Of a stretch of DNA of 64,000 nt, positions 3,745 to 40,150 are shown in pieces (position 1 is the stretch's first letter; each line of letters opens with the position of its first letter). The DNA is from Escherichia coli. Its GTDB lineage: Bacteria > Pseudomonadota > Gammaproteobacteria > Enterobacterales > Enterobacteriaceae. The notes beneath the pieces are model-generated. The model had not been told where the DNA came from. It did not search any database and saw only the letters and a program-made list of their open reading frames with translations. The stretch is from assembly GCF_024700885.2 (NCBI RefSeq), contig NZ_CP117016.1. The stretch is one strand, 5' to 3'. A program made the position numbers and the translations under genes.

Positions 3745-3747
3745 TGT

Positions 3748-24469: not shown

Positions 24470-25723
24470 ATGCTGGAACAAATGGGCATTGCCGCGAAGC
24501 AAGCCTCGTATAAATTAGCGCAACTCTCCAGCCGCGAAAAAAATCGCGTGCTGGAAAAAATCGCCGATGAACTGGAAGCACAGAGCGAAATCATCCTCAA
24601 CGCTAACGCCCAGGATGTTGCTGACGCGCGTGCCAATGGCCTTAGCGAAGCGATGATTGACCGTCTGGCACTGACGCCCGCACGGCTGAAAGGCATTGCC
24701 GATGATGTGCGCCAGGTGTGCAACCTCGCCGATCCGGTGGGGCAGGTAATCGATGGTGGCGTGCTGGACAGTGGCCTGCGTCTGGAGCGCCGTCGCGTGC
24801 CGCTGGGTGTGATTGGCGTGATTTATGAAGCGCGGCCGAACGTGACGGTTGATGTCGCTTCGCTGTGCCTGAAAACCGGTAACGCAGTGATCCTGCGTGG
24901 TGGCAAAGAAACCTGTCGCACTAACGCTGCAACGGTGGCGGTGATTCAGGACGCCCTGAAATCCTGCGATTTACCGGCAGGCGCAGTACAAGCGATTGAT
25001 AATCCTGACCGCGCGCTGGTCAGTGAAATGCTGCGTATGGATAAATACATCGACATGCTGATCCCGCGTGGTGGCGCTGGCCTGCATAAACTGTGCCGCG
25101 AACAGTCGACGATCCCGGTGATCACAGGTGGTATAGGCGTATGCCATATTTATGTTGATGAAAGTGCAGAGATCGCTGAAGCCCTGAAAGTAATCGTCAA
25201 CGCGAAAACCCAGCGTCCGAGCACATGTAATACGGTTGAAACGTTGCTGGTGAATAAAAACATCGCCGATAGCTTCCTGCCTGTGTTAAGCAAACAGATG
25301 GCTGAAAGCGGTGTGACGTTACACGCCGATGCTACCGCACTGACGCAATTGCAGGCAGGTCCCGCGAAGGTGGTTGCTGTTAAAGCTGAAGAGTATGACG
25401 ATGAGTTTCTGTCATTAGATTTGAACGTCAAAATCGTCAGCGATCTTGACGATGCCATCGCCCATATTCGTGAACACGGCACACAACACTCCGATGCGAT
25501 CCTGACCCGCGATATGCGCAACGCCCAGCGTTTTGTTAATGAAGTAGATTCATCCGCTGTTTACGTTAACGCCTCTACGCGTTTTACCGACGGCGGCCAG
25601 TTTGGACTGGGCGCGGAAGTGGCGGTAAGCACACAAAAACTCCACGCGCGTGGCCCAATGGGGCTGGAAGCGCTGACCACTTACAAGTGGATCGGCATTG
25701 GTGATTACACCATTCGTGCGTAA
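24470..25723 (+). CDS. proA: Gamma-glutamyl phosphate reductase
   Basis: 417 aa aldehyde dehydrogenase family; coupled to proB. Confidence 0.95.
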
Positions 25724-25837
25724 ATAAAACCGGGTGATGCAAAAGTAGCCATTTGATTCACAAGGCCATTGACGCATCGCCCGGTTAGTTTTAACCTTGT
25801 CCACCGTGATTCACGTTCGTGAACATGTCCTTTCAGG

Positions 25838-25913
25838 GCCGATATAGCTCAGTTGGTAGAGCAGCGCATTCGTAATGCGAAGGTCGTAGGTTCGACTCCT
25901 ATTATCGGCACCA
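25838..25913 (+). tRNA. thrW: tRNA-Thr (anticodon CGU)
   Basis: GCCGATATAGCTCAGTTGGTAGAGCAGCGCATTCGTAATGCGAAGGTCGTAGGTTCGACTCCTATTATCGGCACCA; cloverleaf with anticodon loop tTCGTAAt. Confidence 0.95.
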
Positions 25914-26077
25914 TCACCTAGTTTTCCCAAGTCAACCCACATCAACAAAATCATTTAAAAACATATATATTACGTTGTTTTCATACGTTTGAGGTCAACC
26001 CTTGTCTCTTGAAATCAACACGCGGTTGGGGGCACAATCAGGGGCATGTTCTGTTCGGTCTAGGAAATGTGCCCCCA

Positions 26078-27268
26078 ATGATGCTGAATGCCCGCAAGGT
26101 TGAAGCTGCGAAAGGAAAAGAGAAGAGCTACAAGCTGTTTGATGGAGGTGGCCTATATCTTCAGGTCGAACCTAATGGCTCGCGTTACTGGCGTATGAAA
26201 TACCGTTTTGCTGGTAAAGAGAAACGATTGTCCTTTGGTGTTTATCCAACAGTCACACTTGCTGATGCCAGACAAAAACGAGAAGACGCGAAGAAACTAC
26301 TCGCAGCAGGTGAAGATCCCGGCGAAGTCAAAAAAGCCAAAAAGCAGGCTTTAAATGCAGCGATTGAGACACTTAACCCATTCAGAGAAGTGGCGTTAGA
26401 GTGGCACAAAATGAAATCACCCAAATGGTCTGAGGGCTATGCTTCCGACATCATTGAGGCATTCGAGAAAGACATTTTCCCGCATATTGGGCACAGACCT
26501 ATAGCTGATATTCAGCCCCTTGAACTGCTTGAAGTTCTGAGATTGATAGAAGCTCGAGGCGCTATGGAGAAAGCGAAGAAAGTCCGTCAGCGATGCGGTG
26601 AAGTTTTTCGCTATGCCATCGTAACGGGTAGGGCAATCTACAATCCGGCACCGGATCTTGCCAGTGCGATGCAAGGACATGAAGCAGTCCACTATCCATT
26701 CCTCAAAGCCAACGAACTACCGGAGTTCTTTAATGCCCTTAATTCTTATTCAGGAAGTCCAATTGTATTGTTGGGGGCGCATTTACTTATCCTGACAGGT
26801 CTACGAACTGGAGAACTACGAGCAGGTGAGTGGCGAGAGGTGGATTTTGATAATGCGGTGTGGGAGATCCCAAAAGAACGTATGAAAATGCGTAGGAGCC
26901 ATATTGTCCCGTTGTCAAAACAAGCATTATCCCATCTCAAAAGTTTGAAAGAACTAACTGGGAACTACCCGCTGATGTTCCCTGGACGCAACGATCCTAG
27001 CAAATTTATGAGTGAAGCAAGCATTAATCAGGTGTTTAAACGTATTGGATATGCAGGGCGTGTTACGGGGCATGGTTTCAGGCATACGATGAGTACAATC
27101 CTACATGAGAAAGGATTTAACAGCGCTTGGATTGAAACCCAGCTTGCTCATTCGGACAAAAACTCTATTCGTGGAATTTATAACCATGCCCAATATCTCG
27201 AAGGGAGAAGAGAAATGATGCAATGGTATGCTAATTATTTATCTGAGCTAATTGGTACTCATAAATGA
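26078..27268 (+). CDS. int: P4-type tyrosine integrase (track ORF begins at 26009; likely start MMLNARK)
   Basis: N-terminus ...YKLFDGGGLYLQVEPNGSRYWRMKYRFAGKEKRLSFGVYP (P4 integrase arm-binding domain); catalytic HGFRHT...Y near the C-terminus. Confidence 0.9.
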   Translation: MMLNARKVEAAKGKEKSYKLFDGGGLYLQVEPNGSRYWRMKYRFAGKEKRLSFGVYPTVTLADARQKREDAKKLLAAGEDPGEVKKAKKQALNAAIETLNPFREVALEWHKMKSPKWSEGYASDIIEAFEKDIFPHIGHRPIADIQPLELLEVLRLIEARGAMEKAKKVRQRCGEVFRYAIVTGRAIYNPAPDLASAMQGHEAVHYPFLKANELPEFFNALNSYSGSPIVLLGAHLLILTGLRTGELRAGEWREVDFDNAVWEIPKERMKMRRSHIVPLSKQALSHLKSLKELTGNYPLMFPGRNDPSKFMSEASINQVFKRIGYAGRVTGHGFRHTMSTILHEKGFNSAWIETQLAHSDKNSIRGIYNHAQYLEGRREMMQWYANYLSELIGTHK

Positions 27269-28089
27269 ATATTTTAAAAATTAATAATACTGATTCTCTG
27301 CTCAGAGATTACTACCAGTTGGATGAAGCTTCAGAAAAAATTGGTTGTAGTGAAAAGGATATACTCTGGTTTGCCAGAGAACGAGATGTAGAGCTATGCA
27401 TGGAATTCCATGATGATGAGTATGATGTTTCATGTGGTTTGAAGATTGATGGTCAAATGGATGAGTTCTTATCTAATCTGAAATATTTACCACGAGATAG
27501 AAATGGCAATATTATGTTGTCAGACTTAAGTTCTATAAGAATCCCTGATGAAGATAATTTAATTGATAAAAATGGTTTTATTCGATGTTTCATATCCGGT
27601 TTATGGGCTGTTGATTATGAATATAAAGATCTGTTAGTTAAGCATGAGGGGCAACCGGATTCCTGGCCTATTCATTTTCTACTGGCGGGTACGCCTAATA
27701 TAAATTGTAAGGTAATTCTTTATGTAAATTATGATGAAAAAGAAAATTATTATCTTTTTGAGGTTTTGTGGATTACAAAGGTACAGATTCAAAAATTCAT
27801 TGATATAGTCTTATGCGAACAAAAGCGGATAAAAAACGCCAATAAATATAAATCACAATCTGAGGCGCAAAAACAAAAACATGCTGTTCCTCGAGCTGAA
27901 ATACTCATGGCTATTATTTCGCTCTATCATCGTGATATGAGGCTAAGAAGAGAGAGTCCAGCAGCGATAGCTGATTATCTTTTTCAACATGCCAGTGAGT
28001 TCTGGCCTAAGACCGGAGAACCGCCTTTGAGCTATGATACTGTTGTTAGTTTGCTACGTAGTTGCATGAAAAACACTAAGTTTAACTAA
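27265..28089 (+). CDS. Hypothetical 274-aa protein, AT-rich, with an N-terminal HTH_17/AlpA-like helix-turn-helix; overlaps the integrase stop by 4 nt
   Basis: YQLDEASEKIGCSEKDILWFARE resembles Xis/AlpA/MerR-type HTH; the remainder has no recognisable motif; markedly lower GC than int. Confidence 0.5.
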   Translation: MNILKINNTDSLLRDYYQLDEASEKIGCSEKDILWFARERDVELCMEFHDDEYDVSCGLKIDGQMDEFLSNLKYLPRDRNGNIMLSDLSSIRIPDEDNLIDKNGFIRCFISGLWAVDYEYKDLLVKHEGQPDSWPIHFLLAGTPNINCKVILYVNYDEKENYYLFEVLWITKVQIQKFIDIVLCEQKRIKNANKYKSQSEAQKQKHAVPRAEILMAIISLYHRDMRLRRESPAAIADYLFQHASEFWPKTGEPPLSYDTVVSLLRSCMKNTKFN

Positions 28090-28214
28090 ATATTAACAAT
28101 TATTGTGGCTAATGATTTTGGATTTTTTTCATTAGTCACATTTTTCTCATTTATAACCTATGTTTTAATTTTCCGTGTTGAAGCCAATAGACTTAGATAA
28201 ACGGAGAATGATGA

Positions 28215-28421
28215 ATGTTATCTAAACATGATAATACTACTTTGCAACGACCTTCAATGGATTCTCTGATCGATATGAAGTTTATTACTTCCGATTGTTT
28301 ATTAAGTGATAAATGGATTTATCGATTGATTTCTCTGAATCGCTTTCCAAAACCTATAAAAATAGGTCGGATGTCACGATGGCGCGCTGCTGATTATTAT
28401 AAGTGGCGAGATGGGTTTTAA
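28215..28421 (+). CDS. alpA: AlpA-family prophage transcriptional regulator
   Basis: 68 aa; ...DKWIYRLISLNRFPKPIKIGRMSRWRAADYYKWRD matches the AlpA HTH pattern. Confidence 0.75.
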   Translation: MLSKHDNTTLQRPSMDSLIDMKFITSDCLLSDKWIYRLISLNRFPKPIKIGRMSRWRAADYYKWRDGF

Positions 28422-28537
28422 GAAAACTCAGGTCAACATTTTGAGGGAATGAGAAATAAGGCAAGAGCAATTAATAAAGGGAATAGATTATCACCTACTC
28501 CCTAAGCCTTAATTGATAGTTAGTAATATTTAACTGA

Positions 28538-28711
28538 TTAGCCTTTAGGGTCAATCCCGCGTGATTGGAGTTCTTTGCGTAAAATTCTTTTAATCCAAGT
28601 TGCCAACGCGCTATCTCCATCTTTGCGCATTTCGTTTTCGAGTTGCAACCTAAAATCGTCGGTAAGACGCATTTGGAATGGTGGAGAACGTTTCTCTTGT
28701 GGTGTTGACAT
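28538..28711 (-). CDS. Ribbon-helix-helix (Arc/CopG-like) small DNA-binding protein, 57 aa; below the ORF-track cutoff
   Basis: Minus-strand translation MSTPQEKRSPPFQMRLTDDFRLQLENEMRKDGDSALATWIKRILRKELQSRGIDPKG; beta-strand then two helices typical of RHH. Confidence 0.6.
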   Translation of the reverse strand: MSTPQEKRSPPFQMRLTDDFRLQLENEMRKDGDSALATWIKRILRKELQSRGIDPKG

Positions 28712-28751
28712 GGTAATTACCCTAGAATATGATGACTACATGGTAATTACC
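28709..28751. promoter_or_regulatory. Two copies of CATGGTAATTACC (10-bp perfect palindrome GGTAATTACC), 30 bp apart; the first overlaps the RHH start codon; candidate operator
   Basis: Direct reading; spacing equals three helical turns; position at the divergent promoter region. Confidence 0.55.
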
Positions 28752-28842
28752 ATTGTAAGTATAGTTCGCTTGTAAAAGCAATGCCCGATTGTGCGGGAAC
28801 ACAAATCGGGCATTTAACCAACCGTTATAAGAGGTAACGAAG

Positions 28843-29016
28843 ATGGCTAAACAGAAGTGTACTTGGTTATTTGCGGCGATCAACCGCAGTCAACGCAATG
28901 CCCGTCCTGTGATGTTAAGGATCACCGCAGATAACGAGCGGTCAGCGCGGCGCAGACTTGCCCCGGACTATGTACTGAGCTTTGCCGGGCGCATTCCCTG
29001 CGGAGGTGAACATGCG
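28843..29016 (+). CDS. Small hypothetical ORF (57 aa), stop overlapping the next ORF start (ATGCGTAA)
   Basis: MAKQKCTWLFAAINRSQRNARPVMLRITADNERSARRRLAPDYVLSFAGRIPCGGEHA; translational-coupling geometry; no homology recognised. Confidence 0.35.
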
Positions 29017-29371
29017 TAATTATCCGCACCCCGGCGAACGCTGGCAGCATGAACGTGGCTGGACGGTCACGATTATCCGATTAATAGAAGCATCGCCCTC
29101 TGTGGCACTGGTTAATCCTGAATTCAGCTGTGAAGTGCTGATACGTCATGACAGCGACAACCAGCTTTCTTCCTGCCCTCTGGCATGGTTTGAACAGCGG
29201 TATACGCGCCTGTTTGATGTACCGCTCTTTAAGCCTGCACCAGCTCCTGCAGGCGGTAGTGGTTCCGGCCCGCTGACACTGCATCCGTCTGTGCTATTTA
29301 TCCGCTGGCGGGAGCGTAGCATATGGCGTTCTGCTGAGCCTGACGACGGTCACTATTCAAAGTTTCTCTGA
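29012..29371 (+). CDS. Hypothetical protein (start at MRNYPHPGERW)
   Basis: ORF in the island early-gene cluster; Gly/Pro linker in the middle. Confidence 0.45.
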   Translation: MRNYPHPGERWQHERGWTVTIIRLIEASPSVALVNPEFSCEVLIRHDSDNQLSSCPLAWFEQRYTRLFDVPLFKPAPAPAGGSGSGPLTLHPSVLFIRWRERSIWRSAEPDDGHYSKFL

Positions 29372-29402
29372 CAAAATACCGCTGAAAACGGAGTAATCCA
29401 CG

Positions 29403-29687
29403 ATGAATATTTCAAACGGGCACAACGGTGCTCAGGGCCACACTTTGCCTGAAAAACACAATACCGGTGCTTTTGCCTATGGGTTGTCAGAGGACAGTTT
29501 CGGAAAGCTGACCCGCGCAAGAAATGCCTGCGACATGCTCCAGCTTCTCTTTTCTGAATACCCGTCTCAGGCCGGAGCACTGGACGCTGGCTGTGCGCAT
29601 GGTGTCGCCGCGCTGATGGAGTACCTGCTGGCAGATTTGACGGATATTGCACACAGCTGCGCACTGATTGAAGGAGGTGCCAGATGA
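29403..29687 (+). CDS. Hypothetical protein, 94 aa
   Basis: ORF with AGGA-like ribosome-binding site; 4-nt overlap with the next ORF. Confidence 0.45.
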   Translation: MNISNGHNGAQGHTLPEKHNTGAFAYGLSEDSFGKLTRARNACDMLQLLFSEYPSQAGALDAGCAHGVAALMEYLLADLTDIAHSCALIEGGAR

Positions 29688-30067
29688 ACCAGCCGCAGGT
29701 TTCCATTTTCCCGGCAGAAATGACCACCGCGCTTTACCGGCGGGCTATTGCTTCAGCATGGCGGCAGAAAATGCTGAACGAAACTGGCAGTGATCAGTAT
29801 GGTCCGCACAGCCTGACGGTGGAGCGTATTGAAATGGCCATTGCGCTGCATATCGAGTGCGTACTGATTAACGAGTACGGCGAAGTGCAGGGCGCCGCTG
29901 CCGCGCTGGCACTGCTGACTGACATGCTGGAGCCGTCACTGCTGACCGCGCCGCCGGTACTGACCGCGCGCGGCTGTGAAGTGATGGCGGAGATGTACCG
30001 CACGCTTCCGGCGGCCTTTGATGACTTCTGCAGTACCGGTGTGACGTTGTATGAGGGGGAAGTATGA
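29684..30067 (+). CDS. Hypothetical protein, 127 aa; stop overlaps the primase start
   Basis: Coupled series of ORFs upstream of the alpha-like primase. Confidence 0.45.
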   Translation: MNQPQVSIFPAEMTTALYRRAIASAWRQKMLNETGSDQYGPHSLTVERIEMAIALHIECVLINEYGEVQGAAAALALLTDMLEPSLLTAPPVLTARGCEVMAEMYRTLPAAFDDFCSTGVTLYEGEV

Positions 30068-32736
30068 CAATACAGACGGTTACGCAGATTTCAGCCGCCG
30101 CACGGGGGAAATGGCCCGTTATTCTGCAGATGCTGCGTATTGATGTACCTGAAAACGGCAGGCACGGTCCCTGCCCGAAATGTGGGGGCAAGGATCGTTT
30201 TCGCCTTGATGACCTTGACGGGCGCGGGACGTGGATCTGCAGCCAGTGTGGCAATGGTGACGGTCTGGATCTGGTTAAGCTCGTAACCGGTTACAGCGTC
30301 AGAAAGGCTGCGCAGGAGGTGGCGCAGGTGCTTAATGTGCCGAATATGCAGGAACTGCCTGTTAAGCCTGCCAGACAAAAAGCCCCTAAACGCGACATGG
30401 GTCTTACCGTGGCGGCGCTGATGAAAGAGAGCCACACGGGAGAAAGCGCCTATCTGACAGGAAAAGGGTTCGCCGGATACCCGGCCTCTCTGACCGGAAG
30501 CGTGCAGCATATCAGCGGTAAGGATTTCCCTGCCGGTTCCCTGCTGTTACCACTCACGACCAACACCGGAGCCGTGACCGGTGCACAGCTTATCGCCCCG
30601 ACGGGTGAAAAAAGCATACTGCCCGGCAGCACGATGAAAGGCGCGTTTGTGTCGCTCAGCCCGTTACCGTCTGAACCACCGGTACAGGTGGTGATTACCG
30701 AAGGTTACGCTACGGCGCTGACGGTAAGTCAGCTCACTGCCGGATGCGTAGTGGCTGCCATATCTGCGGGCAACCTGCCCAATGTGGCGCAGTCGCTGCG
30801 GGCACGCTGGCCTGAGGTAAAAATTATCATCGCCGGTGATAACGATTTTCAGGACGGAGATGAGAATCCCGGCAGAGCCTTTGCTGAACGGGCGGCAAAA
30901 GCTGTTGGCGGCTGGATGACGCTGCCACCAGGAGAGATTAAGGCTGACTGGAATGACTTTCATCGGGAGCACGGTATTACCCGTGCCCGTGAAGCCTTTC
31001 GCAACGGTCTGGTACTGTGCGGGGAAGGCCGCACGCAACTGCCGCACGGGTTCCGTCTTACCCAGGAATATCTCTGGTATGAAAAGCAGGTACAGCGCAA
31101 CGGTGAGACGGAGATCCAGAACGTCAAAATATGCAGCCCGCTGCGCGTGACGGCAATCACCTGCGATGCCGATGGCGGTAACTTCGGACGACTGCTGGAA
31201 TGGGAAGATACGTGGGGTGAGTGTCGCCGCTGGGCGATGCCGATGGAAATGCTGAGCGGCAGTGGTGAGGAACTGCGCCGGGTACTGCTGGTTAACGGGC
31301 TGTCTTATATCAGCACCACCGGTGAGGCACGCGCACGCCTGATGGAATATATCTCACTGTGTAAACCGGAACGCCGCGTGACCTGCGTCAGTCGTACTGG
31401 CTGGCATGGTCAGGTTTACGTCCTGCAGGATGAGGTCAGCGGTGAAGGTGCAGAGGGTGTCATTCTCCAGACCACTTCCGTGCAGGGGCGTGATTTCCGC
31501 GTGTCGGGCACAACAGAGGAATGGCGGGAGCATGTATCCCGCTACTGTACCGGCAACTCCCGCGTGGCATTTGCTGTCAGCCTGGCCTTTGCTGCACCAC
31601 TGTTACGGCTGGTTGGTATGGACGGCGGCGGCTACCACCTCAAAGGGGAATCGACAGACGGTAAGACCACCACCATGAAAGCGGCAACCTCCGTCTGCGG
31701 CGGGCCTGACTACTGGCAGACATGGCGGGCCACCGGCAACGCGCTGGAGGGATGCGCCAGCCGCCGCAACGATGCCGCCATGATGCTTGATGAGATCCGG
31801 GAAGTTGACGGACGCGAGGCAGGCAATATCGCCTACATGCTGGCAAACGGTCAGGGCAAGGGCCGTGCCGGTACGGACGGTGAGCTGCGTACCCGTAAGC
31901 AGTGGCGCCTGTTGTTCTTTTCAACTGGCGAGTTGTCTCTGACCGAACATGCGGCAAAGGCCGGTGAGCGTACTTTTGCCGGGATGGAAGTCAGGATGAT
32001 CCAGATCCCCAGCGATTCCGGGAAGTTTGGCGTTTTTGAGGAGCTGCACGGCTTCGACAGCGGCAAGGCTCTGGCAGAGCATCTTGAATGGGCCACGTCC
32101 TGCTACTACGGTTCGCCGTTCCGGGAGTGGCTGAAAGCACTGACCGCTGATCTTAACGGACTAACGGCACAGGCAAAATCGCTGATGAAGGAATATGCTG
32201 CCGCCCTGACTCCGAAAGATGCAGGCAATCAGGTGGGCCGGGCTGTGAACCGCTTTGCTCTGGTGGCGATGGCAGGTGAACTGGCAACCCGTCTGGGTAT
32301 CACCGGCTGGCCTGAGGGTGAAGCACTGCGGGCAACCCGCGTCTGCCTGAACGCATGGCTGAAAGATCGCGGGCACACCGCCAATCAGGAAGATATCGCC
32401 GCACTGGAGCAGGTTCGCAGTTTCTTTACCGCGAATCAGTACAGCCGCTTTGCAGACTGGTATGACGAGCGCAACCGCCCCGGCAATATGGTGGGCTGGC
32501 GCAGGGTGGAGAAAGGCAGTACCGCGCAGGGCACGGAAGCTGTCACTACGTTCTATGTCATGCCGTCCGGCTGGAAAGAAATCTGCAGGGGATTTGACCC
32601 GCGCAAGGTGGCGCGTCTGTGCGCAGATCGTGGATACCTGCTGCCCTCCACAGATGGCAAACTCCAGACAACCATTCGCCCGCCAGAGATGAATCCCCGC
32701 AGGCTCTATGTCTTCAACAGCGAGGTGCCTGGTTAA
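30064..32736 (+). CDS. P4 alpha-like bifunctional primase-helicase (zinc-binding primase, Toprim and D5/P-loop NTPase domains)
   Basis: CPKCGG...CSQCG zinc ribbon near the N-terminus; Toprim-like ITEGYATALT...IIAGDND; Walker A GESTDGKTT; 890 aa. Confidence 0.85.
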   Translation: MTIQTVTQISAAARGKWPVILQMLRIDVPENGRHGPCPKCGGKDRFRLDDLDGRGTWICSQCGNGDGLDLVKLVTGYSVRKAAQEVAQVLNVPNMQELPVKPARQKAPKRDMGLTVAALMKESHTGESAYLTGKGFAGYPASLTGSVQHISGKDFPAGSLLLPLTTNTGAVTGAQLIAPTGEKSILPGSTMKGAFVSLSPLPSEPPVQVVITEGYATALTVSQLTAGCVVAAISAGNLPNVAQSLRARWPEVKIIIAGDNDFQDGDENPGRAFAERAAKAVGGWMTLPPGEIKADWNDFHREHGITRAREAFRNGLVLCGEGRTQLPHGFRLTQEYLWYEKQVQRNGETEIQNVKICSPLRVTAITCDADGGNFGRLLEWEDTWGECRRWAMPMEMLSGSGEELRRVLLVNGLSYISTTGEARARLMEYISLCKPERRVTCVSRTGWHGQVYVLQDEVSGEGAEGVILQTTSVQGRDFRVSGTTEEWREHVSRYCTGNSRVAFAVSLAFAAPLLRLVGMDGGGYHLKGESTDGKTTTMKAATSVCGGPDYWQTWRATGNALEGCASRRNDAAMMLDEIREVDGREAGNIAYMLANGQGKGRAGTDGELRTRKQWRLLFFSTGELSLTEHAAKAGERTFAGMEVRMIQIPSDSGKFGVFEELHGFDSGKALAEHLEWATSCYYGSPFREWLKALTADLNGLTAQAKSLMKEYAAALTPKDAGNQVGRAVNRFALVAMAGELATRLGITGWPEGEALRATRVCLNAWLKDRGHTANQEDIAALEQVRSFFTANQYSRFADWYDERNRPGNMVGWRRVEKGSTAQGTEAVTTFYVMPSGWKEICRGFDPRKVARLCADRGYLLPSTDGKLQTTIRPPEMNPRRLYVFNSEVPG

Positions 32737-32770
32737 GGCTTTGCGTGAGTCTTATTTATTAAGGGTAACA

Positions 32771-32958
32771 GGTGAAACAGGTGGAACAACCGTATTTTAC
32801 AGGGCTGAACCTGTTCCACCTTCTGAAATAGTGAGGTGGAACAGATGTAACGCCAGCCAATCCGCTGTTCCACCTTGTTACCCGCGATGTTCCACCGGTG
32901 CAGTGTATATAAATGCCTTATAAAACAAAGCCGTAACACATGTTTCACCTGTTCCACC
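32771..32958. repeat. Iteron cluster (replication origin): at least 8 copies of TGTT(C/T)CACC / GGTG(G/A)AACA in both orientations, plus an AT-rich patch
   Basis: Copies at 32771, 32780, 32811, 32836, 32864, 32888, 32941, 32949; the motif is one base off the P4 ori/crr repeat TGTTCACC bound by alpha. Confidence 0.7.
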
Positions 32959-33136
32959 GCATCAGGGACATAAAGCAGACTGAAACAGAGGGCATTTTTA
33001 TCTGGCTGGCTTTCATAGCCACGTCTGAATAACCGCAAGCGCCCGTTGTGCCAGCCACCACACACTGAACACCGATAGTGTGCTTGTGTCAGCCACGACA
33101 CAATTGACGTAACGAACCAACCCGACAGGAGAAGTC

Positions 33137-33880
33137 ATGAACAATACCGCAGTAAATAACAACCTTTCCACTTTTCCGGCTGTAACGCAGCGGGCACTGG
33201 AAACCATGAACACAGCCAGAAACGCATGGCTTGAAGCACGTCGTCAGCAGAAAGCGGCAGCGGATAATATTGCGACAATCCGCCAGCGTCGCGCTGAAAT
33301 GGAAGCCACGACGAACACACTGAATGAGGAGTGGCGCACGCTGTTTCGTGAAAGTCAGGGCGTGATCTCAAAGGAAATGAAAAAACTGCGCACGGAAATT
33401 GCGCTGGGACGAGAAACGCTTGAGGATTTTGATGAGCTGCTGGCGGCTCAGGAAAGCGAAAATGCACTTTTGCCGCAGAAAGCTGCAGAATTAGCCGGAA
33501 AGTATATCCACGCGCATAACATTCTTGTGGATATTCGCGCAAAACAAATCTGGGAGGATTTTATGCAGTCGCATGGAAAAGTGCTTATTCAGACGCTGAG
33601 CCTGCTTAAATCCACAATGGGCCGGGAAGCCAGTGCCGTTGTGGGTGTGGTGAATTCAGTTAATGACCCGGACACAGTGCTGAAAGACTTTATTCATAAA
33701 TATATCACCAGACCGGCTCTGGCTAACGATGCGATGCCTGAGCAGGACCCGGTGTTTAAACTGGCGGGAGTTGCCCCGGATTATGCGGCGCGTCTGGATT
33801 TCAGTAATCAACTCTCTCCGGCAGCTATGCATAAAATTAAGGTTCGTCAGGAACTTGCTGAGAAGGAGAAAGCAGTATGA
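33137..33880 (+). CDS. Hypothetical alpha-helical or coiled-coil protein, 247 aa
   Basis: A/E/R/Q-rich predicted helices; size and position are only suggestive of a Sid-like scaffold protein. Confidence 0.45.
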   Translation: MNNTAVNNNLSTFPAVTQRALETMNTARNAWLEARRQQKAAADNIATIRQRRAEMEATTNTLNEEWRTLFRESQGVISKEMKKLRTEIALGRETLEDFDELLAAQESENALLPQKAAELAGKYIHAHNILVDIRAKQIWEDFMQSHGKVLIQTLSLLKSTMGREASAVVGVVNSVNDPDTVLKDFIHKYITRPALANDAMPEQDPVFKLAGVAPDYAARLDFSNQLSPAAMHKIKVRQELAEKEKAV

Positions 33881-34428
33881 CGGCCCGAGGCACGCCTGAC
33901 CAGGCACTTACCAGTTTTCGGAATGCCCGTATTCTGTGGGCCGGACATAATGAGAGCCGAAAAGCCGTTGAACAACAGATAACATCTCTCCTCGCTGCCA
34001 CAGAAAAACCAGCAGATTATGCCCGACAGCTCGAATTACTGCGGGAACGTCTGGATGTGCTGAAATGGCAAATTAACTGTGCTGCGCGCGAATGCATTTA
34101 CTCGCAGCATTTACTGATGGAGGCCTGCACAGAAGCCGCTCTCAGCAATTTTATGCAGGCGAATGGGGCAGCCCTGACATCTGCACTGGCTCCGTTCCTG
34201 AAGGGGCGCGGAGGGGTTGACGTTGCGTCCCGTATATTACGCAGTGCTCTGGTTCGCCAGCTGGCAATAACACCGCCTGAATTTGCCGGGGATTATCGTG
34301 AGATCCTGGATGAATCCGGTTTGATGCTTGACCCCGGGATGATTCGTGATTGCCAGGGTTCTTACACCCCGGCACAACATCTGCGTTTTCAGCAACGCCT
34401 GAATGACATTAACGATATACAGGAGTGA
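33877..34428 (+). CDS. Hypothetical protein, 183 aa, coupled to the previous ORF
   Basis: 4-nt overlap with 33137..33880. Confidence 0.45.
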   Translation: MTARGTPDQALTSFRNARILWAGHNESRKAVEQQITSLLAATEKPADYARQLELLRERLDVLKWQINCAARECIYSQHLLMEACTEAALSNFMQANGAALTSALAPFLKGRGGVDVASRILRSALVRQLAITPPEFAGDYREILDESGLMLDPGMIRDCQGSYTPAQHLRFQQRLNDINDIQE

Positions 34429-34433
34429 TATTA

Positions 34434-34706
34434 ATGGCACTTAAATGTCCGGAATGCGGTACAGTTGCACACGCCAGAACAGCAGCCTATGAAGCTCCGT
34501 CAGTTAAACGCTCGTGGTATCAGTGCCAGAATCTGGAATGTTCCTGCACATTTACGGCACTGGAGAGTGTGGATAAGATAATCATGAAACCCCGGCGCAA
34601 TGAACAGGAACCAGACAAATCACAAACCCCGGTAAAACAACAGCAAACGCTCAATCGCTATGGCTCCGCGTCAAAACTGTCAAGCCGTCAGCAGATTCCT
34701 GTCTGA
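34434..34706 (+). CDS. Ogr/Delta-family zinc-finger late transcription activator (start at MALKCPECG)
   Basis: CPECG-N-H...YQCQNLECSCTF four-Cys zinc-finger pattern of P2 Ogr and P4 Delta. Confidence 0.8.
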   Translation: MALKCPECGTVAHARTAAYEAPSVKRSWYQCQNLECSCTFTALESVDKIIMKPRRNEQEPDKSQTPVKQQQTLNRYGSASKLSSRQQIPV

Positions 34707-35299
34707 TTAGAAAAAAAATGCCCACGTAATCCCGGTCGAGTACTGGGATTTTTAACACCTTACCCCTGGCTGGCCTGAGAGCGCATGAGTGCATGTCTAT
34801 GGCGCATGAAAACGCATGAGTCTCATGCACCATTTTTGACGCGAAAGCCCTTGTGTGGTGGCTTCTGAGACGATTAATGAGGTGCATGAAAACCAGTCTG
34901 TTAAGTGAAGCGGGAAGGCGTGCGGGGCTGCGCACGTAGCAGGGTTAAATGGTCAATTCTGGCGCAGCTCACGACATTAAGTCAGCCTCAATAGATGTAC
35001 GTGTTGGTAGGGGTAATTCGCTACTTTTTTGTATCCTAAATTGTATGGTTTGATGCTGATCGTTTCTTCACCGCACCTGCAGAGATATCAATTCAATGTG
35101 GACAAAAATGAGTCTGGCTCTTTCCGTATCACTAGAATTGCCAGTATTGTTAGGGATGATGCCCATATCATACGGAGGGAGCCAGTGGGGGCGATTGCGC
35201 GTGGAAAGTGCTTTGGATTTATTCATCGGTTTTATGATTCTACATAAGGAGCAAAGGTACTTGTATCGTATGAAAAAAAATAGTATAGATATAATGCTC

Positions 35300-35525
35300 C
35301 TTACGCGTTATGGCATAGTTATATGCTAGTCGGGCGATTAGCCAGACTCGAACTTATTGAACGGTATTAGGGTTGCGCTTGGTGTGCCTCTGGATTGCAC
35401 TCCATGCTGTCGCGCAATCCAGAGGCACACCAAGCGCTTCCTTTAGGTAAGTGAGTAAAAACAGCACCTTCTTCGATTTATGATGAAGGTGCTGCAATCG
35501 TAACGTTTTTTGTATACACGGATAG
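35300..35525 (+). ncRNA. Candidate retron non-coding RNA (msr-msd): 63-nt perfect hairpin 35375-35437 plus a second hairpin 35462-35494; boundaries and a1/a2 unresolved
   Basis: A perfect long inverted repeat immediately upstream of an effector-RT operon is the hallmark of msd; TATAAT at 35291. Confidence 0.5.
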
Positions 35526-35529
35526 TATA

Positions 35530-36498
35530 GTGGCTGAGACATACGAAGATAAAGTTGCTAATCATGTTTCAGAGTGGGAAATGGAAAATTTCCGTGTATG
35601 TTATGATGATCAGGTTATTTTCTTATGTGGTGCGGAAGTACTTCCTCAAGGAAGTGTTCAGACTTCAATGAGAGGGCATTTTTATCACTATTGCCTGAAT
35701 AAAAATAAAGATATAGCTGATAAAATAATTCTTGCCGAAAACTTCAAAAAATATCTTCAAAATAATCATTATCCAGACTTAATAACTTTTGAGCATGATG
35801 TTGCAAGTATATCTAGTTTAGTTGTTATTTTCTTGGAAAGCAGTGGTTCAATTGCTGAGTTAGGTGTTTTCTGTAATATTAGTGATGTCAATAAAAAATT
35901 ATTGATATTTGTTCCATCAGATGAAGTTGAAGGTGACAAGAAAGAGTCTTTCATTTACTTAGGGCCTTTATTGTTTTTAAAAGAAAAGGTCAATGAAAAA
36001 GCATTTAAGATTTATCCAAAACCCACTAATGGTTCTGATTACTCCGAGCATTTAGAGATTATGGCTGATGACTTGGCTGAACTATTACCTAGAAGTGGTA
36101 AGTTTGAAAGCTTCGATCCTGACAATTTAGGGCATATAGCTTTTCTTATATGCAGAATTGTGCATTTAGTAATGCCTATTAAGCTAAAGGAAATATTAAA
36201 TTGTTTAAAAATAATAGGTATCAATAAATATACTCTGACTGAGGTTGAAAGAATTTTGTTTTTATTGGAAACATTGGGTTTTATAAATATTTATCCGTAT
36301 GGCGATTTAAAATACTATTATTCAATGCAAGCCAGGCAAAATCTTAAATTAGGGAAAAATAAAACCGGATTCACAATCGATGAGGCTGGTATTTTTACTG
36401 ATATTAGTGTTTTTATCAATGACAATAAATTATGTAGTGATAAAAAAAGACGGCTGGTTTTGAAAGGCATTAAGGAGAAGCATAATGGACATAATTAA
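35530..36498 (+). CDS. Retron effector: nucleoside 2-deoxyribosyltransferase-like N-domain plus winged-helix-like C-domain (GTG start at 35530 or ATG at 35578)
   Basis: VIFLCGAEV and ESSGSIAELGVF resemble the NDT P-loop-like and catalytic-Glu motifs; overlaps the RT start by 14 nt; AT-rich. Confidence 0.6.
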   Translation: MAETYEDKVANHVSEWEMENFRVCYDDQVIFLCGAEVLPQGSVQTSMRGHFYHYCLNKNKDIADKIILAENFKKYLQNNHYPDLITFEHDVASISSLVVIFLESSGSIAELGVFCNISDVNKKLLIFVPSDEVEGDKKESFIYLGPLLFLKEKVNEKAFKIYPKPTNGSDYSEHLEIMADDLAELLPRSGKFESFDPDNLGHIAFLICRIVHLVMPIKLKEILNCLKIIGINKYTLTEVERILFLLETLGFINIYPYGDLKYYYSMQARQNLKLGKNKTGFTIDEAGIFTDISVFINDNKLCSDKKRRLVLKGIKEKHNGHN

Positions 36499-37417
36499 AA
36501 AAATCGCAGATGAAACTCTAATGCCGGTATCAAAAGTATCTGCTTTTATATTTACAGCCCCATATAGATATAAAGTATATCCCATCCCCAAAAGGAATGG
36601 TGGGTTTAGGGAGATTGCTCAACCGTCAAGGGCATTAAAGTTTATGCAAAGGATTGTTATTGCTGAACTAGAGAAAGTACTTAAGGTTCATGAAAACGCA
36701 TATGCTTATGTCAAAGGACGTAGTATAAAAGATAATGTGGAAAAGCATCAAAGAAACTCTTATATTTTGAAAGTTGATTTCTGCGACTTTTTTAATAGCA
36801 TAAACCCTTACGACCTTGAGTTATGTTTAAAAAACAATGGGTTAGACTCATTGTTAAGCTCACAAGAATTATTGAATAAACTTTTTTTCTATAAGAAAAG
36901 TAAAAGAGGTGCTTTATCAATGAGCATCGGGGCACCTAGTTCTCCATTTTTGTCAAATGCGATTATGTATAAGTTTGATTCAGTCATTAGTGATATGTGT
37001 TCAAATAAAAATATTACTTATACAAGATATGCTGATGATCTTACATTTTCTACTAATGAAAAAGGTATTTTGTATGAATTCATACATGAAATAGATAAAG
37101 TTCTTGAGGAGATAGATAGTCCTAAATTAAAACTAAATGATAAGAAAACCATATTTGCATCTAAAAAATGCAATCGTCATATAACAGGAATTGTTATTAA
37201 TAACGAAGAAAAACTTTCAATTGGTAGAGATAAAAAACGTTACTTAAGTAGTTTAATTCATAAATTCTCGCTTAATGCACTTAATGAGGAAGGAGTTGAA
37301 CATTTAAAAGGGTATTTGGCGTATGTAAATAAAATTGAACCTTCATTCATTAGCAGAATGAAAAGGAAATATGGAGTCGAAGTTGTCAACTCCATAATCA
37401 CATTTAATCCATTATAA
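36485..37417 (+). CDS. Retron-type reverse transcriptase, 310 aa
   Basis: RT motifs LKVDFCDFFNSI, SIGAPSSPFLSNAIMY, YTRYADDLTF (YADD) and the retron-specific ITGIVIN (VTG) motif. Confidence 0.85.
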   Translation: MDIIKKIADETLMPVSKVSAFIFTAPYRYKVYPIPKRNGGFREIAQPSRALKFMQRIVIAELEKVLKVHENAYAYVKGRSIKDNVEKHQRNSYILKVDFCDFFNSINPYDLELCLKNNGLDSLLSSQELLNKLFFYKKSKRGALSMSIGAPSSPFLSNAIMYKFDSVISDMCSNKNITYTRYADDLTFSTNEKGILYEFIHEIDKVLEEIDSPKLKLNDKKTIFASKKCNRHITGIVINNEEKLSIGRDKKRYLSSLIHKFSLNALNEEGVEHLKGYLAYVNKIEPSFISRMKRKYGVEVVNSIITFNPL

Positions 37418-37894
37418 ATGTGAACTTATTATATTTATAATGGTTGTGCTTTTTTCTTGTACCTTAGGGGTGTAAAAGAATGTCATCATGAAGATAATTA
37501 AAAAATGAATGGCAATAAGAGTAATAGGTAACATTTTTTCAATATCACTTAAATGGCGATGCCTTTTTTGTGTAATAACTTCCTCTTCTCTTTTGAAAGG
37601 AGTTATACCTATCTTGACCTCCATCTCCTGAATTACTGTAAACTTAGCAGCATTAATTCTTTTATAGGAAGTAATTAGATTTATCCAATAGATATTAATT
37701 ACGACTCCAGCGAGAGAGATTAAGATTACCCAAATAGGCTGTATTGTTGGCTTTAAAGAAAAATATCCAACAAGCGGTAAAATAGAAGAGTTTAAGGCTA
37801 ATAAAAATGTATTTGACTTAAGTCTTCGATCACTTATTCTATCCGCCATCTCAACGCATGTTTTATATATTTCTATGACTTTATCATCCGTCAC
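37412..37894 (-). CDS. Small multi-TM membrane protein (160 aa), SLATT-like topology; convergent on the RT, last gene before attR
   Basis: N-terminal amphipathic segment followed by 2-3 hydrophobic helices (ILPLVGYFSL..., IWVILISLAGVVINIYWINLI, LPITLIAIHFLIIFMMTFFY); AT-rich. Confidence 0.5.
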   Translation of the reverse strand: MTDDKVIEIYKTCVEMADRISDRRLKSNTFLLALNSSILPLVGYFSLKPTIQPIWVILISLAGVVINIYWINLITSYKRINAAKFTVIQEMEVKIGITPFKREEEVITQKRHRHLSDIEKMLPITLIAIHFLIIFMMTFFYTPKVQEKSTTIINIISSHL

Positions 37895-38137
37895 TAATAG
37901 TATCCTTATAAATTTCTGAGTTGTTCAAATAAATGTTATCATATATTTTTATCAACGTAATATGTATTTTTACGTATTTTTAACTGTGAGAGATACATAG
38001 TGATTGTTGGGTGCATGTACAATCCTTGATACTTAACAATGAAAGCGTAGTTGTGGGGGGGGGGCATATTTGGGGGCATTACTATTTAATCTTTCTTGAT
38101 TTTTATTATAAAACAACTGGTTGTATTGATGTTTTGT

Positions 38138-38153
38138 TCCTATTATCGCACCA
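38138..38153 (+). repeat. attR: TCCTATTATCGCACCA, a 15/16 match to the thrW 3' end
   Basis: Direct repeat of 25897-25913 lacking one G. Confidence 0.7.
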
Positions 38154-38280
38154 TTTAAATCAAGTAGTTACCTCACATTCAATTACACCACATTTTCCTC
38201 CTGTGCCGTATTTGTGCCATTGTAACCCTGGCAATTCATCAAAATACTGTTCTGACATCAGGCAGTGCAGGTGCAGACAT

Positions 38281-38496
38281 TTAAGCCAATTGCTGCCGCC
38301 ATTCCTTGACGTGGTCAATCAGGGCGCGGAGCTTTGGTGCAATATTGCGACGCTGTGGGAAATACAGATAGAAGCCCGGAAATTGTGGAAGAAAGTCATC
38401 AAGCAGCGATACAAGCTTACCGCTTTCAATATATGGCCTGAAAGTTTCCTGAGTGGCAATTGTTATGCCTGCGCCGGCAAGAGCCAGCCTCAACAT
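38281..38496 (-). pseudogene. C-terminal 71-aa fragment of a LysR-family regulator (yagP-like remnant) just outside attR
   Basis: LTTR C-terminal pattern ...KLVSLLDDFLPQFPGFYLYFPQRRNIAPKLRALIDHV with no N-terminal HTH. Confidence 0.6.
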
Positions 38497-38589
38497 CAGA
38501 CGCAGATCATTCTGCTAATCCCACCGATGCTTCGGTCTGGAGTGGTAAATTAATATTGGACACAGTTTTATTTTCTCTCTTTTTCGAGG

Positions 38590-38900
38590 GCTATATGAAC
38601 AGGAAGAATACATCCCTAAGCGGTTAATGCTGGCGTAATCAATAGACCAGCATTAATCACAGATGATTACCAATCAGACAGAAATGGTTAAATCGTCGAA
38701 TTCATATTTAATACGTTTTCTTACGCCGCTGAGCAACTTGAAAGCAGGAAAAGGATGTATATTTTAAATATCAGTGAAGTGAACAGTTTATTGCCGTTAT
38801 TAATAGAGATGGAGGAATAAATAGGCGTATTCTACTATTGCAACAAAAACAACGATAATGATCAGTTTTCATAATGAAGTAACCTGACAGATATAAAAAT
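38590..38900. repeat. Degenerate paralogous copy of the ykgO 3' end fused to the ykgR upstream region and coding sequence (about 28-nt internal deletion, frameshifted)
   Basis: 38600-38730 aligns with 57207-57340; 38740-38885 aligns with 58030-58190. Confidence 0.6.
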
Positions 38901-39079
38901 GTTGATTGAGGCTAAATGCCCGGATGAAGGTTGTCGAGGGAGCCAGGTGGTTTTTTCTTTTGGGTGATCTCCATTGCTGGATAGTCCTCTCTTTCTCGCT
39001 CAAAGCAGACCCTGGAATTGAATGCAGAGGGACTACCTGACACAATTTTGCACAGTGAAGAGTCGGTCGTTATTAACGT

Positions 39080-39964: not shown

Positions 39965-40150
39965 TGAAACATCCCCCCTTCATGCCGGCAATCTCCGCAT
40001 TAATTTATAACAATATGGTATTAATCTTAGCATTAATCGCCCCCTAATCAGCACTAATTCTGCTCACTATAATGACCCCATCAAAGTAAAGCACCGCAGC
40101 GTTGTCCGTCGGAAACCTGTATCTCTCTGTTGTTTTTTATGGGGATTTTT

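What the first reader, a model, noticed from the sequence alone, without database searches (positions are those of the whole stretch)
28538..28815. Repressor-operator-like module: RHH gene whose start codon is embedded in paired GGTAATTACC palindromes, plus a nearby 11-bp-stem hairpin
CATGGTAATTACC occurs twice, 30 bp apart (28709-28721 and 28739-28751). The first copy contains the ATG of a 57-aa ribbon-helix-helix protein on the minus strand. An 11-bp perfect inverted repeat AATGCCCGATT-N12-AATCGGGCATT follows at 28780-28814. This looks like the immunity or autoregulatory switch between the divergent alpA/RHH side and the early operon (28843 onward) of the satellite.
Basis: seen in the sequence. 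Interest (0 to 1): 0.45.

Follow-up and report, generated by a model that had tools for sequence, protein, structure and literature searches.

The report
Satellite repressor switch plus antisense RNA
This is the on/off control region of a P4-like phage satellite in E. coli: a small Arc-like repressor with its own palindromic binding sites over two face-to-face promoters, and the "nearby hairpin" is probably the terminator of a SymR-like antisense RNA that masks the ribosome-binding site of the first early gene.

Summary
ACATGGTAATTACC occurs twice, 30 bp apart; these are the only exact GGTAATTACC copies in 64 kb. The 11-bp hairpin is perfect. The element is a P4-like satellite at tRNA-Thr.

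The repressor-operator reading is supported by comparison, not by experiment. In about 50 related loci, palindrome 1 lies in the spacer of a near-consensus early promoter (TTGACA-17-TATGAT). Palindrome 2 lies at the start sites of that promoter and of the small gene's own promoter. The palindrome changes together with the predicted DNA-reading beta-strand:
- SP[PQ][FY]QMRL goes with GGTAATTACC.
- SPQFPMRL goes with GGTATATACC.
- TDQYQ[IL]RL goes with TGTAATTACA.

The hairpin is not an operator. Covariation, a 120:7 excess of G·U over A·C pairs and a downstream U-tract place it on the minus strand. A -10 box sits exactly 7 nt before AGYCAU in 51 of 51 distinct upstream sequences. It is therefore the likely terminator of a ~75-nt cis-antisense RNA (28848→~28774) covering the Shine-Dalgarno sequence and start codon of the icd/kil-like first early gene. 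This RNA and E. coli SymR find each other in reciprocal covariance-model searches.

alpA is convergent with the small gene, not co-oriented. The module occupies the slot of P4's CI-RNA immunity region. Nothing has been tested experimentally.

The parts
28538..28711 (-). 57-aa Arc/Mnt-like ribbon-helix-helix protein gene (MSTPQEKRSPPFQMRL...). It is monocistronic and is annotated as a hypothetical protein, WP_001605077.1.
   Evidence: ORF. PGAP CDS in the identical E. coli 1190 locus. 85 homologues. Third-position bias 725 against 328/195. PHROG228 'Arc-like repressor' E=0.003, and 1e-5 for the L003 homologue. hhalign against Arc and Mnt is in register, E about 1e-3. AF2 model: coil 1-17, helix 18-30, helix 33-50.
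28708..28721 (.). Operator O1: ACATGGTAATTACC (core palindrome GGTAATTACC, 28712-28721). It lies in the 17-bp spacer of P_early and abuts or overlaps the RHH start codon.
   Evidence: Conserved position and beta-strand-linked sequence in related loci.
28738..28753 (.). Operator O2: perfect 14-bp palindrome ATGGTAATTACCAT (28740-28753). It lies at the predicted +1 of P_early and the predicted +1 of P_rhh.
   Evidence: (I1, D2).
28705..28733 (+). P_early: TTGACA (28705-28710), 17 nt, TATGAT (28728-28733). The inferred start is near 28740. It drives icd-like through the DUF5375 gene to the primase.
   Evidence: 11 of 12 consensus matches. TTGACA-17/18-TAnnnT at the same place in about 45 of 52 related upstream regions. 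The start site is inferred.
28752..28781 (-). P_rhh: -10 TACAAT (28757-28752) and -35 TTGCTT (28781-28776), spacer 18, inferred start near 28745 inside O2. The -35 coincides with the U-tract of the antisense RNA terminator.
   Evidence: Read. Homologous loci have TTGTTT-17-TA(C/A)AAT at the same offset, +43 to +49. The scan did not list it (8 of 12 matches), so it is weak and inferred.
28774..28848 (-).
   Evidence: Rfam SymR hit, 31.6 bits, E=2.3e-4. Own model R1: 77 bits here and 36.4 bits, E=1.8e-7, on K-12 symR, which was not used to build it. Structure covariation: 96.9% of cells paired, 12 of 21 pairs compensatory, 0 of 500 shuffles as good. G·U to A·C ratio 120:7 on the minus strand. 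MFE -28.5 kcal/mol, z=-5.3. The ends are inferred.
28780..28814 (-). It is the terminator stem-loop of the antisense RNA, followed on the minus strand by UUGCUUUUAC (28779-28770).
   Evidence: The stem sequence varies with compensatory changes. The apical GUGUU..GCAC and the flank UGGUYAGA are conserved.
28856..28883 (-). P_as: -10 TACACT (28861-28856) and -35 TTGATC (28883-28878), spacer 16. It is embedded in codons 5-7 and 12-14 of the icd-like gene and lies 7 nt upstream of the A of AGCCAU (28848).
   Evidence: 51 of 51 distinct related sequences have TAnnnT exactly 7 nt before AGYCAU, while every other offset has at most 10 of 51. Loci without a -35 carry a TGn extended -10. K-12 symR has the same geometry (PMC1891008).
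28843..29019 (+). First early cistron: an Icd-like protein, homologous to the C-terminal (kil/eta) part of the P4 'cI ORF'. It is the target of the antisense RNA.
   Evidence: NF033153, E=5.5e-24. 54% identity to P4p10 residues 86-131.
28478..28503 (-). Terminator-like hairpin just after the RHH stop codon, between the convergent RHH and alpA-like genes.
28215..28421 (+). AlpA/Vis-like HTH gene, convergent with the RHH gene. It is context and not part of the operator set.
   Evidence: Pfam PF05930 E=2e-4. PHROG66. GGTAATTACC operators persist where this gene is unrelated or absent.

Best explanation
Region 28538-28883 is the immunity or early-control region of a P4-like satellite integrated at tRNA-Thr. 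It has two layers.

Layer 1 is inferred from anatomy and covariation. The 57-aa Arc/Mnt-like ribbon-helix-helix protein binds as dimers to the palindromes O1 and O2 (core GGTAATTACC; centres 30 bp apart, about three helical turns). O1 fills the spacer of the strong rightward promoter P_early (TTGACA-17-TATGAT). O2 covers the start site of P_early and the start site of the weak leftward promoter P_rhh, whose -10 abuts O2. Occupancy therefore shuts off the early operon (icd/kil-like through DUF5375 to the alpha-type primase) and autoregulates the repressor. Because the two promoters face each other with start sites about 5 bp apart, they probably also compete for RNA polymerase.

Layer 2 is inferred from covariation and from homology to SymR. 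A ~75-nt RNA is transcribed from P_as inside the icd-like ORF. It is fully complementary to the translation-initiation region of the first early cistron. By analogy with SymR, it blocks that cistron's translation. By analogy with P4 CI/kil and P1 c4/icd, this may also promote premature termination upstream of the primase.

Shown here: the sequences, their positions, their conservation, protein-operator covariation and RNA covariation with strand asymmetry. Not shown: binding, repression, or the existence of the RNA.
For: Context: int, alpA-like gene, Icd-like gene, DUF5375, TOPRIM/DUF927 primase, Sid-like protein, Psu and Delta.

Operators: the 14-mer is exact in both copies and unique in the window. 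P_early matches 11 of 12 consensus positions, with O1 in its spacer. The architecture is conserved in Enterobacterales, Pasteurellaceae, Orbaceae and Aeromonadales.

Covariation between beta-strand motif and palindrome:
- SP[PQ][FY]QMRL goes with GGTAATTACC.
- SPQFPMRL goes with GGTATATACC.
- TDQYQ[IL]RL and S[QKT]QYQxRL go with TGTAATTACA.
- NPPFQFRL goes with TGTAATG/CATTACA.
The variable residues align with Arc Q9/N11 and Mnt H6/N8.

The operators stay the same where the neighbouring AlpA-like gene is 45% identical, unrelated or absent.

E. coli relatives share the early operon but carry a different small minus-strand gene with its own repeats. L002 has a YlcI/YnfO protein and 3 copies of AGGTGCGATTCA, which indicates exchangeable specificity cassettes.

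Antisense RNA. Model hits lie on the RHH strand just upstream of the gene in 55 of 66 loci.

SymR is an experimentally shown 77-nt translational repressor whose promoter is embedded in the target ORF (PMC1891008).
Against: No experiment supports any step. The RHH assignment is weak at the profile level:
- no Pfam or NCBIfam hit for the window protein;
- hhalign probability only 17-18%;

Operator and protein are physically linked, so part of the covariation could be co-inheritance. P_rhh is a poor consensus match and the scan did not call it. The window's U-tract has only four consecutive U, and the terminator scan did not call the hairpin. The L002 variant lacks a U-tract. The SymR match is far below Rfam's gathering score (31.6 against 61). 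How the helper phage lifts repression is unknown.
Confidence: 0.72

Rival explanations
1. The palindromes are bound by the neighbouring AlpA/Vis-like HTH protein, as Vis acts at P4 promoters, or by a helper-phage protein. On this reading the small ORF is only a passenger.
For: The alpA-like gene lies 120 bp away. Established knowledge: in P4, Vis regulates the PLE and PLL promoters. The module alpA + small gene + operators is replaced as a block between E. coli elements.
Against: The same GGTAATTACC operators occur in Xenorhabdus, Gilliamella, Oceanisphaera, Yersinia and Serratia loci, where the adjacent AlpA-like ORF is 45% identical, undetectable or absent, while the small protein keeps its beta-strand motif. 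Palindrome changes track single residues of that motif.
Confidence: 0.08
2. The hairpin acts in the plus-strand early mRNA leader, as a stabiliser, a processing site, an attenuator or a protein-binding stem-loop. No separate antisense RNA exists.
For: It lies in the predicted 5' UTR of the early operon, between about 28740 and 28842. In the window the stem is perfect on both strands. The leader necessarily contains the complementary structure.
Against: On the plus strand the non-Watson-Crick cells are mostly C·A or A·C (22) rather than G·U (6). On the minus strand the ratio is 120 G·U to 7 A·C. The conserved T-tract follows the stem only on the minus strand. An invariantly placed -10 precedes it on the minus strand. 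There is reciprocal similarity to SymR, a minus-type antisense RNA.
Confidence: 0.1
3. The small protein only autoregulates itself, like an orphan RHH antitoxin or plasmid CopG-type regulator. It does not control the satellite's early operon, and immunity is set elsewhere.
For: RHH antitoxins and CopG-type proteins typically autoregulate (established knowledge). O2 overlaps the predicted P_rhh start.
Against: No toxin partner is present; the gene is monocistronic with its own terminator. O1 sits inside the spacer of the conserved, near-consensus P_early. No C4, IsrK or CI-type RNA was found anywhere in the element.
Confidence: 0.07
4. The repeats and hairpin are chance or non-functional remnants.
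For: These are short motifs in an AT-rich intergenic region.
Against: Exact copies are unique in the window. Position and sequence are conserved across four bacterial orders. RNA covariation beats all shuffle and slide controls.
Confidence: 0.02

Closest known systems
Phage P22 immunity I region (Mnt and Arc ribbon-helix-helix repressors plus sar antisense RNA controlling ant)
   Same: Small RHH repressor or repressors with palindromic operators placed in and around opposed, overlapping promoters, combined with a short antisense RNA against the ribosome-binding region of the regulated gene (P22 description: PMC2629481). The beta-strand aligns in register: RSPQYQMRL, KMPQFNLRW (Arc) and DDPHFNFRM (Mnt).
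   Different: Here there is one RHH gene, not two. The regulated unit is a satellite replication operon headed by an Icd/Kil-like gene, not an antirepressor. The antisense RNA is related to SymR, and no relation to sar was tested. Sequence similarity to Arc and Mnt is marginal.
SymR/symE of E. coli K-12 (Rfam RF01809; Kawano et al. 2007, PMC1891008)
   Same: A ~77-nt cis-antisense RNA that starts opposite the start codon (AGYCAU). Its promoter is embedded in the target ORF, with the -10 box 7 nt upstream. The fold is the same: 5' stem, stem-loop carrying the anti-SD, UGRUUAG, and a terminal hairpin with apical GUGUU..GCAC. Covariance-model hits are reciprocal.
   Different: The score is below Rfam's gathering threshold (31.6 against 61). 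The target in the window is Icd-like, not the AbrB-fold SymE; one relative, L046, does have a SymE-like first gene. Here the RNA sits next to an RHH repressor inside a satellite, not next to a LexA-controlled promoter in the hsd/mcr region.
Satellite phage P4 immunity (CI RNA, seqA/seqC, kil/eta, PLE)
   Same: Same genomic slot: after vis/alpA and before the Icd/Kil-like gene, DUF5375 and the alpha primase. The logic is the same, an RNA acting on the leader and first cistron of the early operon.
   Different: P4 uses a trans-acting RNA processed from the sense transcript, of the kind detectable with Rfam C4/isrK models (PMC10111431). No such hit exists here, and P4 has no match to the antisense model. 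P4 has no RHH gene.
P1/P7 immI (c4 antisense RNA, icd, ant)
   Same: An RNA represses translation of an icd-type first cistron, with polar effects downstream (established knowledge).
   Different: c4 is encoded in the same orientation, upstream of its target, and is processed. Here the RNA is a true cis-antisense transcript. There is no Rfam C4 hit.

Membership tests
Ribbon-helix-helix (Arc/MetJ/Mnt-type) repressors | Sequence-profile membership | tested here: inconclusive
   No Pfam or NCBIfam hit for the window protein. PHROG228 'Arc-like repressor' E=0.003, and 1e-5 for the L003 homologue. hhalign against Arc and Mnt: E about 1e-3, probability 17-18%, in register. Some database members are named 'Arc family DNA-binding protein'.
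Ribbon-helix-helix (Arc/MetJ/Mnt-type) repressors | Beta-alpha-alpha fold forming an intertwined dimer | tested here: inconclusive
Ribbon-helix-helix (Arc/MetJ/Mnt-type) repressors | Short palindromic or tandem operators at its own or a divergent promoter, read by N-terminal strand residues | tested here: met
   O1 and O2 positions. Strand-motif to operator covariation across about 40 distinct loci.
Ribbon-helix-helix (Arc/MetJ/Mnt-type) repressors | Demonstrated DNA binding and repression | not testable with these tools
   Needs EMSA, footprinting or reporter fusions.
SymR antisense RNA (Rfam RF01809) | Score at or above the family gathering threshold (61 bits) | tested here: not met
   31.6 bits, E=2.3e-4 over 301 nt. 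This makes it a relative, not a member as curated.
SymR antisense RNA (Rfam RF01809) | Cis-antisense position over the SD and start codon, with the promoter inside the target ORF | tested here: met
   Coordinates 28848→~28774 against ATG 28843 and SD 28830-28834. A -10 box 7 nt before AGYCAU in 51 of 51 distinct sequences, and in K-12 symR.
SymR antisense RNA (Rfam RF01809) | Shared secondary structure supported by covariation | tested here: met
   The independent model R1 finds K-12 symR at 36.4 bits, E=1.8e-7.
SymR antisense RNA (Rfam RF01809) | Target is a SymE (AbrB-fold) toxin | tested here: not met
   The window target is Icd-like. Only L046 among the relatives has a SymE-like first gene.
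P4 CI / P1 C4 / IsrK immunity RNAs | Match to Rfam C4 or isrK models in the immunity region | tested here: not met
   No such hit at E<=1 in 25500-40000. The P4 leader sequence shows no similarity.
P4-like satellite | Integrase, alpA/vis, alpha-type primase, sid, psu and delta, about 10-19 kb, at a tRNA gene | tested here: met
   tRNA-Thr at 25838-25910. Psu and a Psu-fold Sid-like protein, DUF5375. PGAP annotation of the identical locus.
Intrinsic (Rho-independent) terminator | GC-rich stem followed by a U-tract on the transcribed strand | tested here: inconclusive
   The stem is strong. The minus-strand tail UUGCUUUUAC has 4 consecutive U and was not called by the scan. A T-rich tail is conserved in most relatives but absent in L002.

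The most novel reading that the evidence does not exclude
A large clade of P4-like satellites (Enterobacterales, Pasteurellaceae, Orbaceae, Aeromonadales) has replaced the textbook P4 CI-RNA immunity with a composite cassette. The cassette is an exchangeable RHH repressor with its operator set, fused at a fixed breakpoint to a conserved cis-antisense RNA that gates translation of the first early cistron. The chromosomal type I antitoxin SymR of E. coli K-12 would then be a domesticated or escaped member of this satellite RNA family.
Probability: 0.5. Interest if true: 0.6.

Novelty: new variant of a known kind. Interest (0 to 1): 0.48.

Why it matters
P4-like satellites occur in over 30% of Enterobacterales genomes (PMC8628076) and carry defence cargo; this one carries a retron. 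Their regulation, however, is still described from P4 alone. If this module is the real lysogeny and immunity switch of a major subgroup, three things follow.
- It gives concrete handles for inducing, curing or engineering these satellites: one 57-aa protein, two 14-bp sites and one ~75-nt RNA.
- The beta-strand to operator table predicts immunity groups from sequence.
- It gives SymR, so far an isolated chromosomal type I antitoxin RNA, a family and a plausible mobile-element origin.

The literature searches run here found none of this described. The library searched is incomplete, so earlier descriptions cannot be excluded.

Tried and rejected
1. I tested whether the hairpin arm repeated inside the icd ORF (GCAATGCCCG at 28895-28904, D1 and I2) forms a P4-like seqA/B/C alternative pairing. 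Rejected: the intragenic copy is invariant in L003 while the hairpin stem differs there.
2. I looked for homology of the hairpin or leader to the P4 CI region. None was seen by eye, with the covariance model, or as Rfam C4/isrK hits.
5. The intrinsic-terminator scan did not call the hairpin on either strand, so the terminator reading rests on comparative data.
6. The simple promoter scorer picks different 'best' P_rhh candidates in some loci, including the window. P_rhh placement rests on the recurrent TTGTTT-17-TA(C/A)AAT at offset +43 to +49.
7. Two paper-tool calls failed because a search term was too short.

Full report
**1. Context**

The window is E. coli chromosome. The sequence proB, proA, tRNA-Thr (25838-25910; Rfam) is followed by a P4-like satellite with these genes:
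- integrase, 26009-27268;
- a 274-aa unknown protein;
- an AlpA/Vis-like HTH protein, 28215-28421 (+);
- the 57-aa minus-strand ORF, 28538-28711;
- an Icd-like gene, 28843-29019;
- two small ORFs and a DUF5375 gene;
- a TOPRIM/DUF927 (P4 alpha-type) primase, 30064-32736;
- a Psu-fold Sid-like protein, then Psu and Delta;
- a retron as cargo.

An identical module is annotated in E. coli strain 1190. There the small ORF is a 'hypothetical protein' and no RNA gene is annotated.

**2. The observation**

All the reported elements are present. The direct repeat is 14 nt, ACATGGTAATTACC, at 28708-28721 and 28738-28751. The second copy is a perfect 14-bp palindrome, ATGGTAATTACCAT. GGTAATTACC occurs nowhere else in the 64 kb, and 0 of 100 shuffles reach the observed count at up to 1 mismatch. 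The hairpin arms are 11/11 complementary with a 13-nt loop. The stem continues through GUG/CAC. The alpA-like gene is on the + strand, so it is convergent with the small ORF.

**3. The small gene is real and Arc-like**

There are 85 homologues. Across 24 distinct 57-codon homologues, differences fall 328, 195 and 725 times on codon positions 1, 2 and 3. Pfam and NCBIfam give nothing for the window protein. PHROGs gives 'Arc-like repressor' at E=0.003, and at 1e-5 for the E. coli homologue in L003. Some database entries are named 'Arc family DNA-binding protein'.

hhalign against Arc and Mnt gives E about 1e-3 with low probability. It aligns RSPQYQMRL with Arc KMPQFNLRW and Mnt DDPHFNFRM, which puts the strand in register. 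The AF2 monomer model has an N-terminal coil and two helices of Arc-like length. Fold searches were uninformative. RHH membership is therefore probable but not proven.

**4. Promoters and operators**

The scan finds TTGACA (28705)-17-TATGAT (28733), an 11 of 12 match, on the + strand. O1 fills its spacer, and O2 begins at the expected start site near 28740. On the minus strand, TACAAT (28757-28752) abuts O2, with TTGCTT 18 nt upstream. This places the start of the small gene's own transcript inside O2 (read). The two promoters therefore face each other with start sites about 5 bp apart.

**5. Comparative test of the operators**

A scan of one genome per species returned 66 loci encoding relatives. 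Reading their upstream regions in the window's orientation shows one architecture throughout:
- TTGACA overlapping the small gene's start;
- palindrome 1;
- an AT-rich -10;
- palindrome 2;
- often a third partial site;
- a hairpin with a variable stem;
- the conserved flank TCT(A/G)ACCA;
- a Shine-Dalgarno sequence and ATGGCT.

TTGACA-17/18-TAnnnT is found at the same offset in about 45 of 52 upstream regions.

The palindrome changes with the predicted DNA-reading strand:
- SP[PQ][FY]QMRL goes with GGTAATTACC.
- SPQFPMRL goes with GGTATATACC.
- TDQYQ[IL]RL and the Pasteurellaceae S[QKT]QYQxRL go with TGTAATTACA.
- NPPFQFRL, in E. coli L003, goes with TGTAATG...CATTACA.

The residues that vary (positions 10, 11 and 13) align with or adjoin Arc Gln9/Asn11 and Mnt His6/Asn8. 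From established knowledge, those residues contact bases.

The same operator persists where the neighbouring AlpA-like gene is 45% identical, unrelated or absent. This argues that the small protein, not AlpA, is the binder.

Within E. coli, 65 of 5,426 genomes carry the whole module. About 270 others match only from 28783 or 28817 rightwards. Those carry a different small minus-strand gene with its own repeats. One example is a YlcI/YnfO-family protein with three AGGTGCGATTCA repeats. The slot therefore behaves as an exchangeable specificity cassette.

**6. The hairpin re-read**

Aligning the hairpin from 36 distinct loci gives a stem with compensatory changes at 7 of 10 pairs. On the + strand, however, most non-canonical cells are C·A or A·C (22) rather than G·U (6).

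On the minus strand, RNAalifold finds three helices. P1 pairs GCCA with UGGU. P2 is a 4-6 bp stem whose loop carries CCUC, the anti-Shine-Dalgarno sequence. P3 is the hairpin.

The pair counts support this fold:
- 96.9% of cells are paired, against 86.4% in shuffles, and 0 of 500 shuffles do as well.
- 12 of 21 pairs show changes on both sides.
- Sliding the partner columns drops pairing to 35-49%.

On the minus strand there are 120 G·U cells against 7 A·C, or 83 against 7 without one invariant pair. The structure was predicted on that strand, which favours it somewhat. The + strand count is independent and points the same way. A T-rich tract follows the stem only on the minus strand in most loci.

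Upstream on the minus strand, all 51 distinct sequences have a TAnnnT hexamer exactly 7 nt before the A of AGYCAU. No other offset exceeds 10 of 51. Loci without a recognisable -35 have a TGn extended -10. This holds even though the overlapping N-terminal codons of the first early gene differ widely.

The window RNA (28848→28772) folds at -28.5 kcal/mol, z = -5.3.

**7. Relation to SymR**

Rfam's only hit in the region is SymR on the minus strand, 28848→28777, at 31.6 bits (gathering score 61), E=0.011 over 14.5 kb and 2.3e-4 over 301 nt. The aligned layout is the same throughout: AGYCAU, an anti-SD loop, UGRUUAG and an apical GUGUU..GCAC.

A covariance model built only from the satellite loci finds K-12 symR at 36.4 bits, E=1.8e-7. 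It finds nothing in P4 and a single copy in the window.

K-12 symR has TAGAAT, 7 nt, then AGTCAT. SymR is a 77-nt RNA whose promoter lies within symE and which represses symE translation (PMC1891008).

The model hits 55 of the 66 loci. Every hit is on the strand of the small gene and just upstream of it. One relative, L046, has a SymE-like protein as its first early gene.

**8. Relation to P4**

Gene order matches P4: vis, then the immunity region, then the kil/eta ORF, eps, DUF5375 and alpha. The Icd-like protein is 54% identical to the C-terminal part of the P4 'cI ORF'. P4's CI-type RNA is reported to be detectable with Rfam C4/isrK models (PMC10111431), and none is found here. The RHH, operator and antisense-RNA module thus occupies the place of P4's PLE/CI region.

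**9. Mechanism proposed**

See the best explanation. The protein acts at the two promoters, and the RNA acts at the ribosome-binding site of the first early cistron. A polar effect on the primase is inferred by analogy with P4 CI/kil and P1 c4/icd. The closest overall analogue is P22 immI, which has two RHH repressors and the sar antisense RNA (PMC2629481). All functional steps are inferred.

**10. Novelty**

The literature searches found no description of an RHH repressor or a SymR-like RNA in P4-like satellites. The library is incomplete. Each component is of a known kind. New here are the combination, its place in P4-like satellites and the link to SymR.

Noticed in passing
window 35296-35486 and about 35530-37417: Retron cargo in the satellite's variable region. 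There is an Rfam msr hit at 35296-35365 (53.4 bits, gathering score 52) and a sub-threshold STnc400 hit at 35368-35486 (53 against 80), which is probably the msd part. The identical E. coli 1190 locus annotates a retron St85-family effector and reverse transcriptase, followed by a RipA-family membrane protein.
   Followed up: no
L046 (Limnobaculum allomyrinae) about 2821-2916 and the gene to its left: In this relative, the first early gene behind the antisense RNA encodes a SymE-like AbrB-fold protein (…ISGKWLEELGFTTGQAVTV…). It places a SymE/SymR-like pair inside the RHH-controlled module.
   Followed up: partly
L025, L026, L028, L029, L030 (Photorhabdus) about 1633-1723: A second, higher-scoring copy of the antisense-RNA model lies about 1.2 kb upstream of the copy next to the RHH gene, on the same strand. 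It may be a tandem module or a second regulated gene.
   Followed up: no
L002 (E. coli 219, tRNA-Leu element) 3689-4069: This element has the same early operon and antisense RNA, but the small minus-strand gene is a YlcI/YnfO-family protein with three AGGTGCGATTCA direct repeats (45 and 35 bp apart). Its antisense RNA hairpin has no U-tract, so it may read through into that gene.
   Followed up: partly
window 28895-28904, compared with 28778-28787: GCAATGCCCG from the hairpin's left arm recurs inside the icd-like ORF and could pair with the hairpin's right arm (D1 and I2). The intragenic copy does not co-vary with the hairpin in L003, so it is probably coincidental.
   Followed up: yes
L070 (phage P4) 8171-8584 minus strand: The C-terminal 46 residues of the historical P4 'cI ORF' product are 54% identical to the window's Icd-like protein. 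This probably explains why PHROGs labels Icd-like proteins 'transcriptional repressor', although P4 immunity is RNA-based.
   Followed up: partly
window 27265-28089: A 274-aa ORF between the integrase and alpA has no Pfam or PHROG family. The corresponding position holds different hypothetical proteins in L002 and L003. It is a second variable slot.
   Followed up: no
window 28478-28503: A terminator-like hairpin lies between the convergent alpA-like and RHH genes. It was called on the minus strand and may serve both genes.
   Followed up: no
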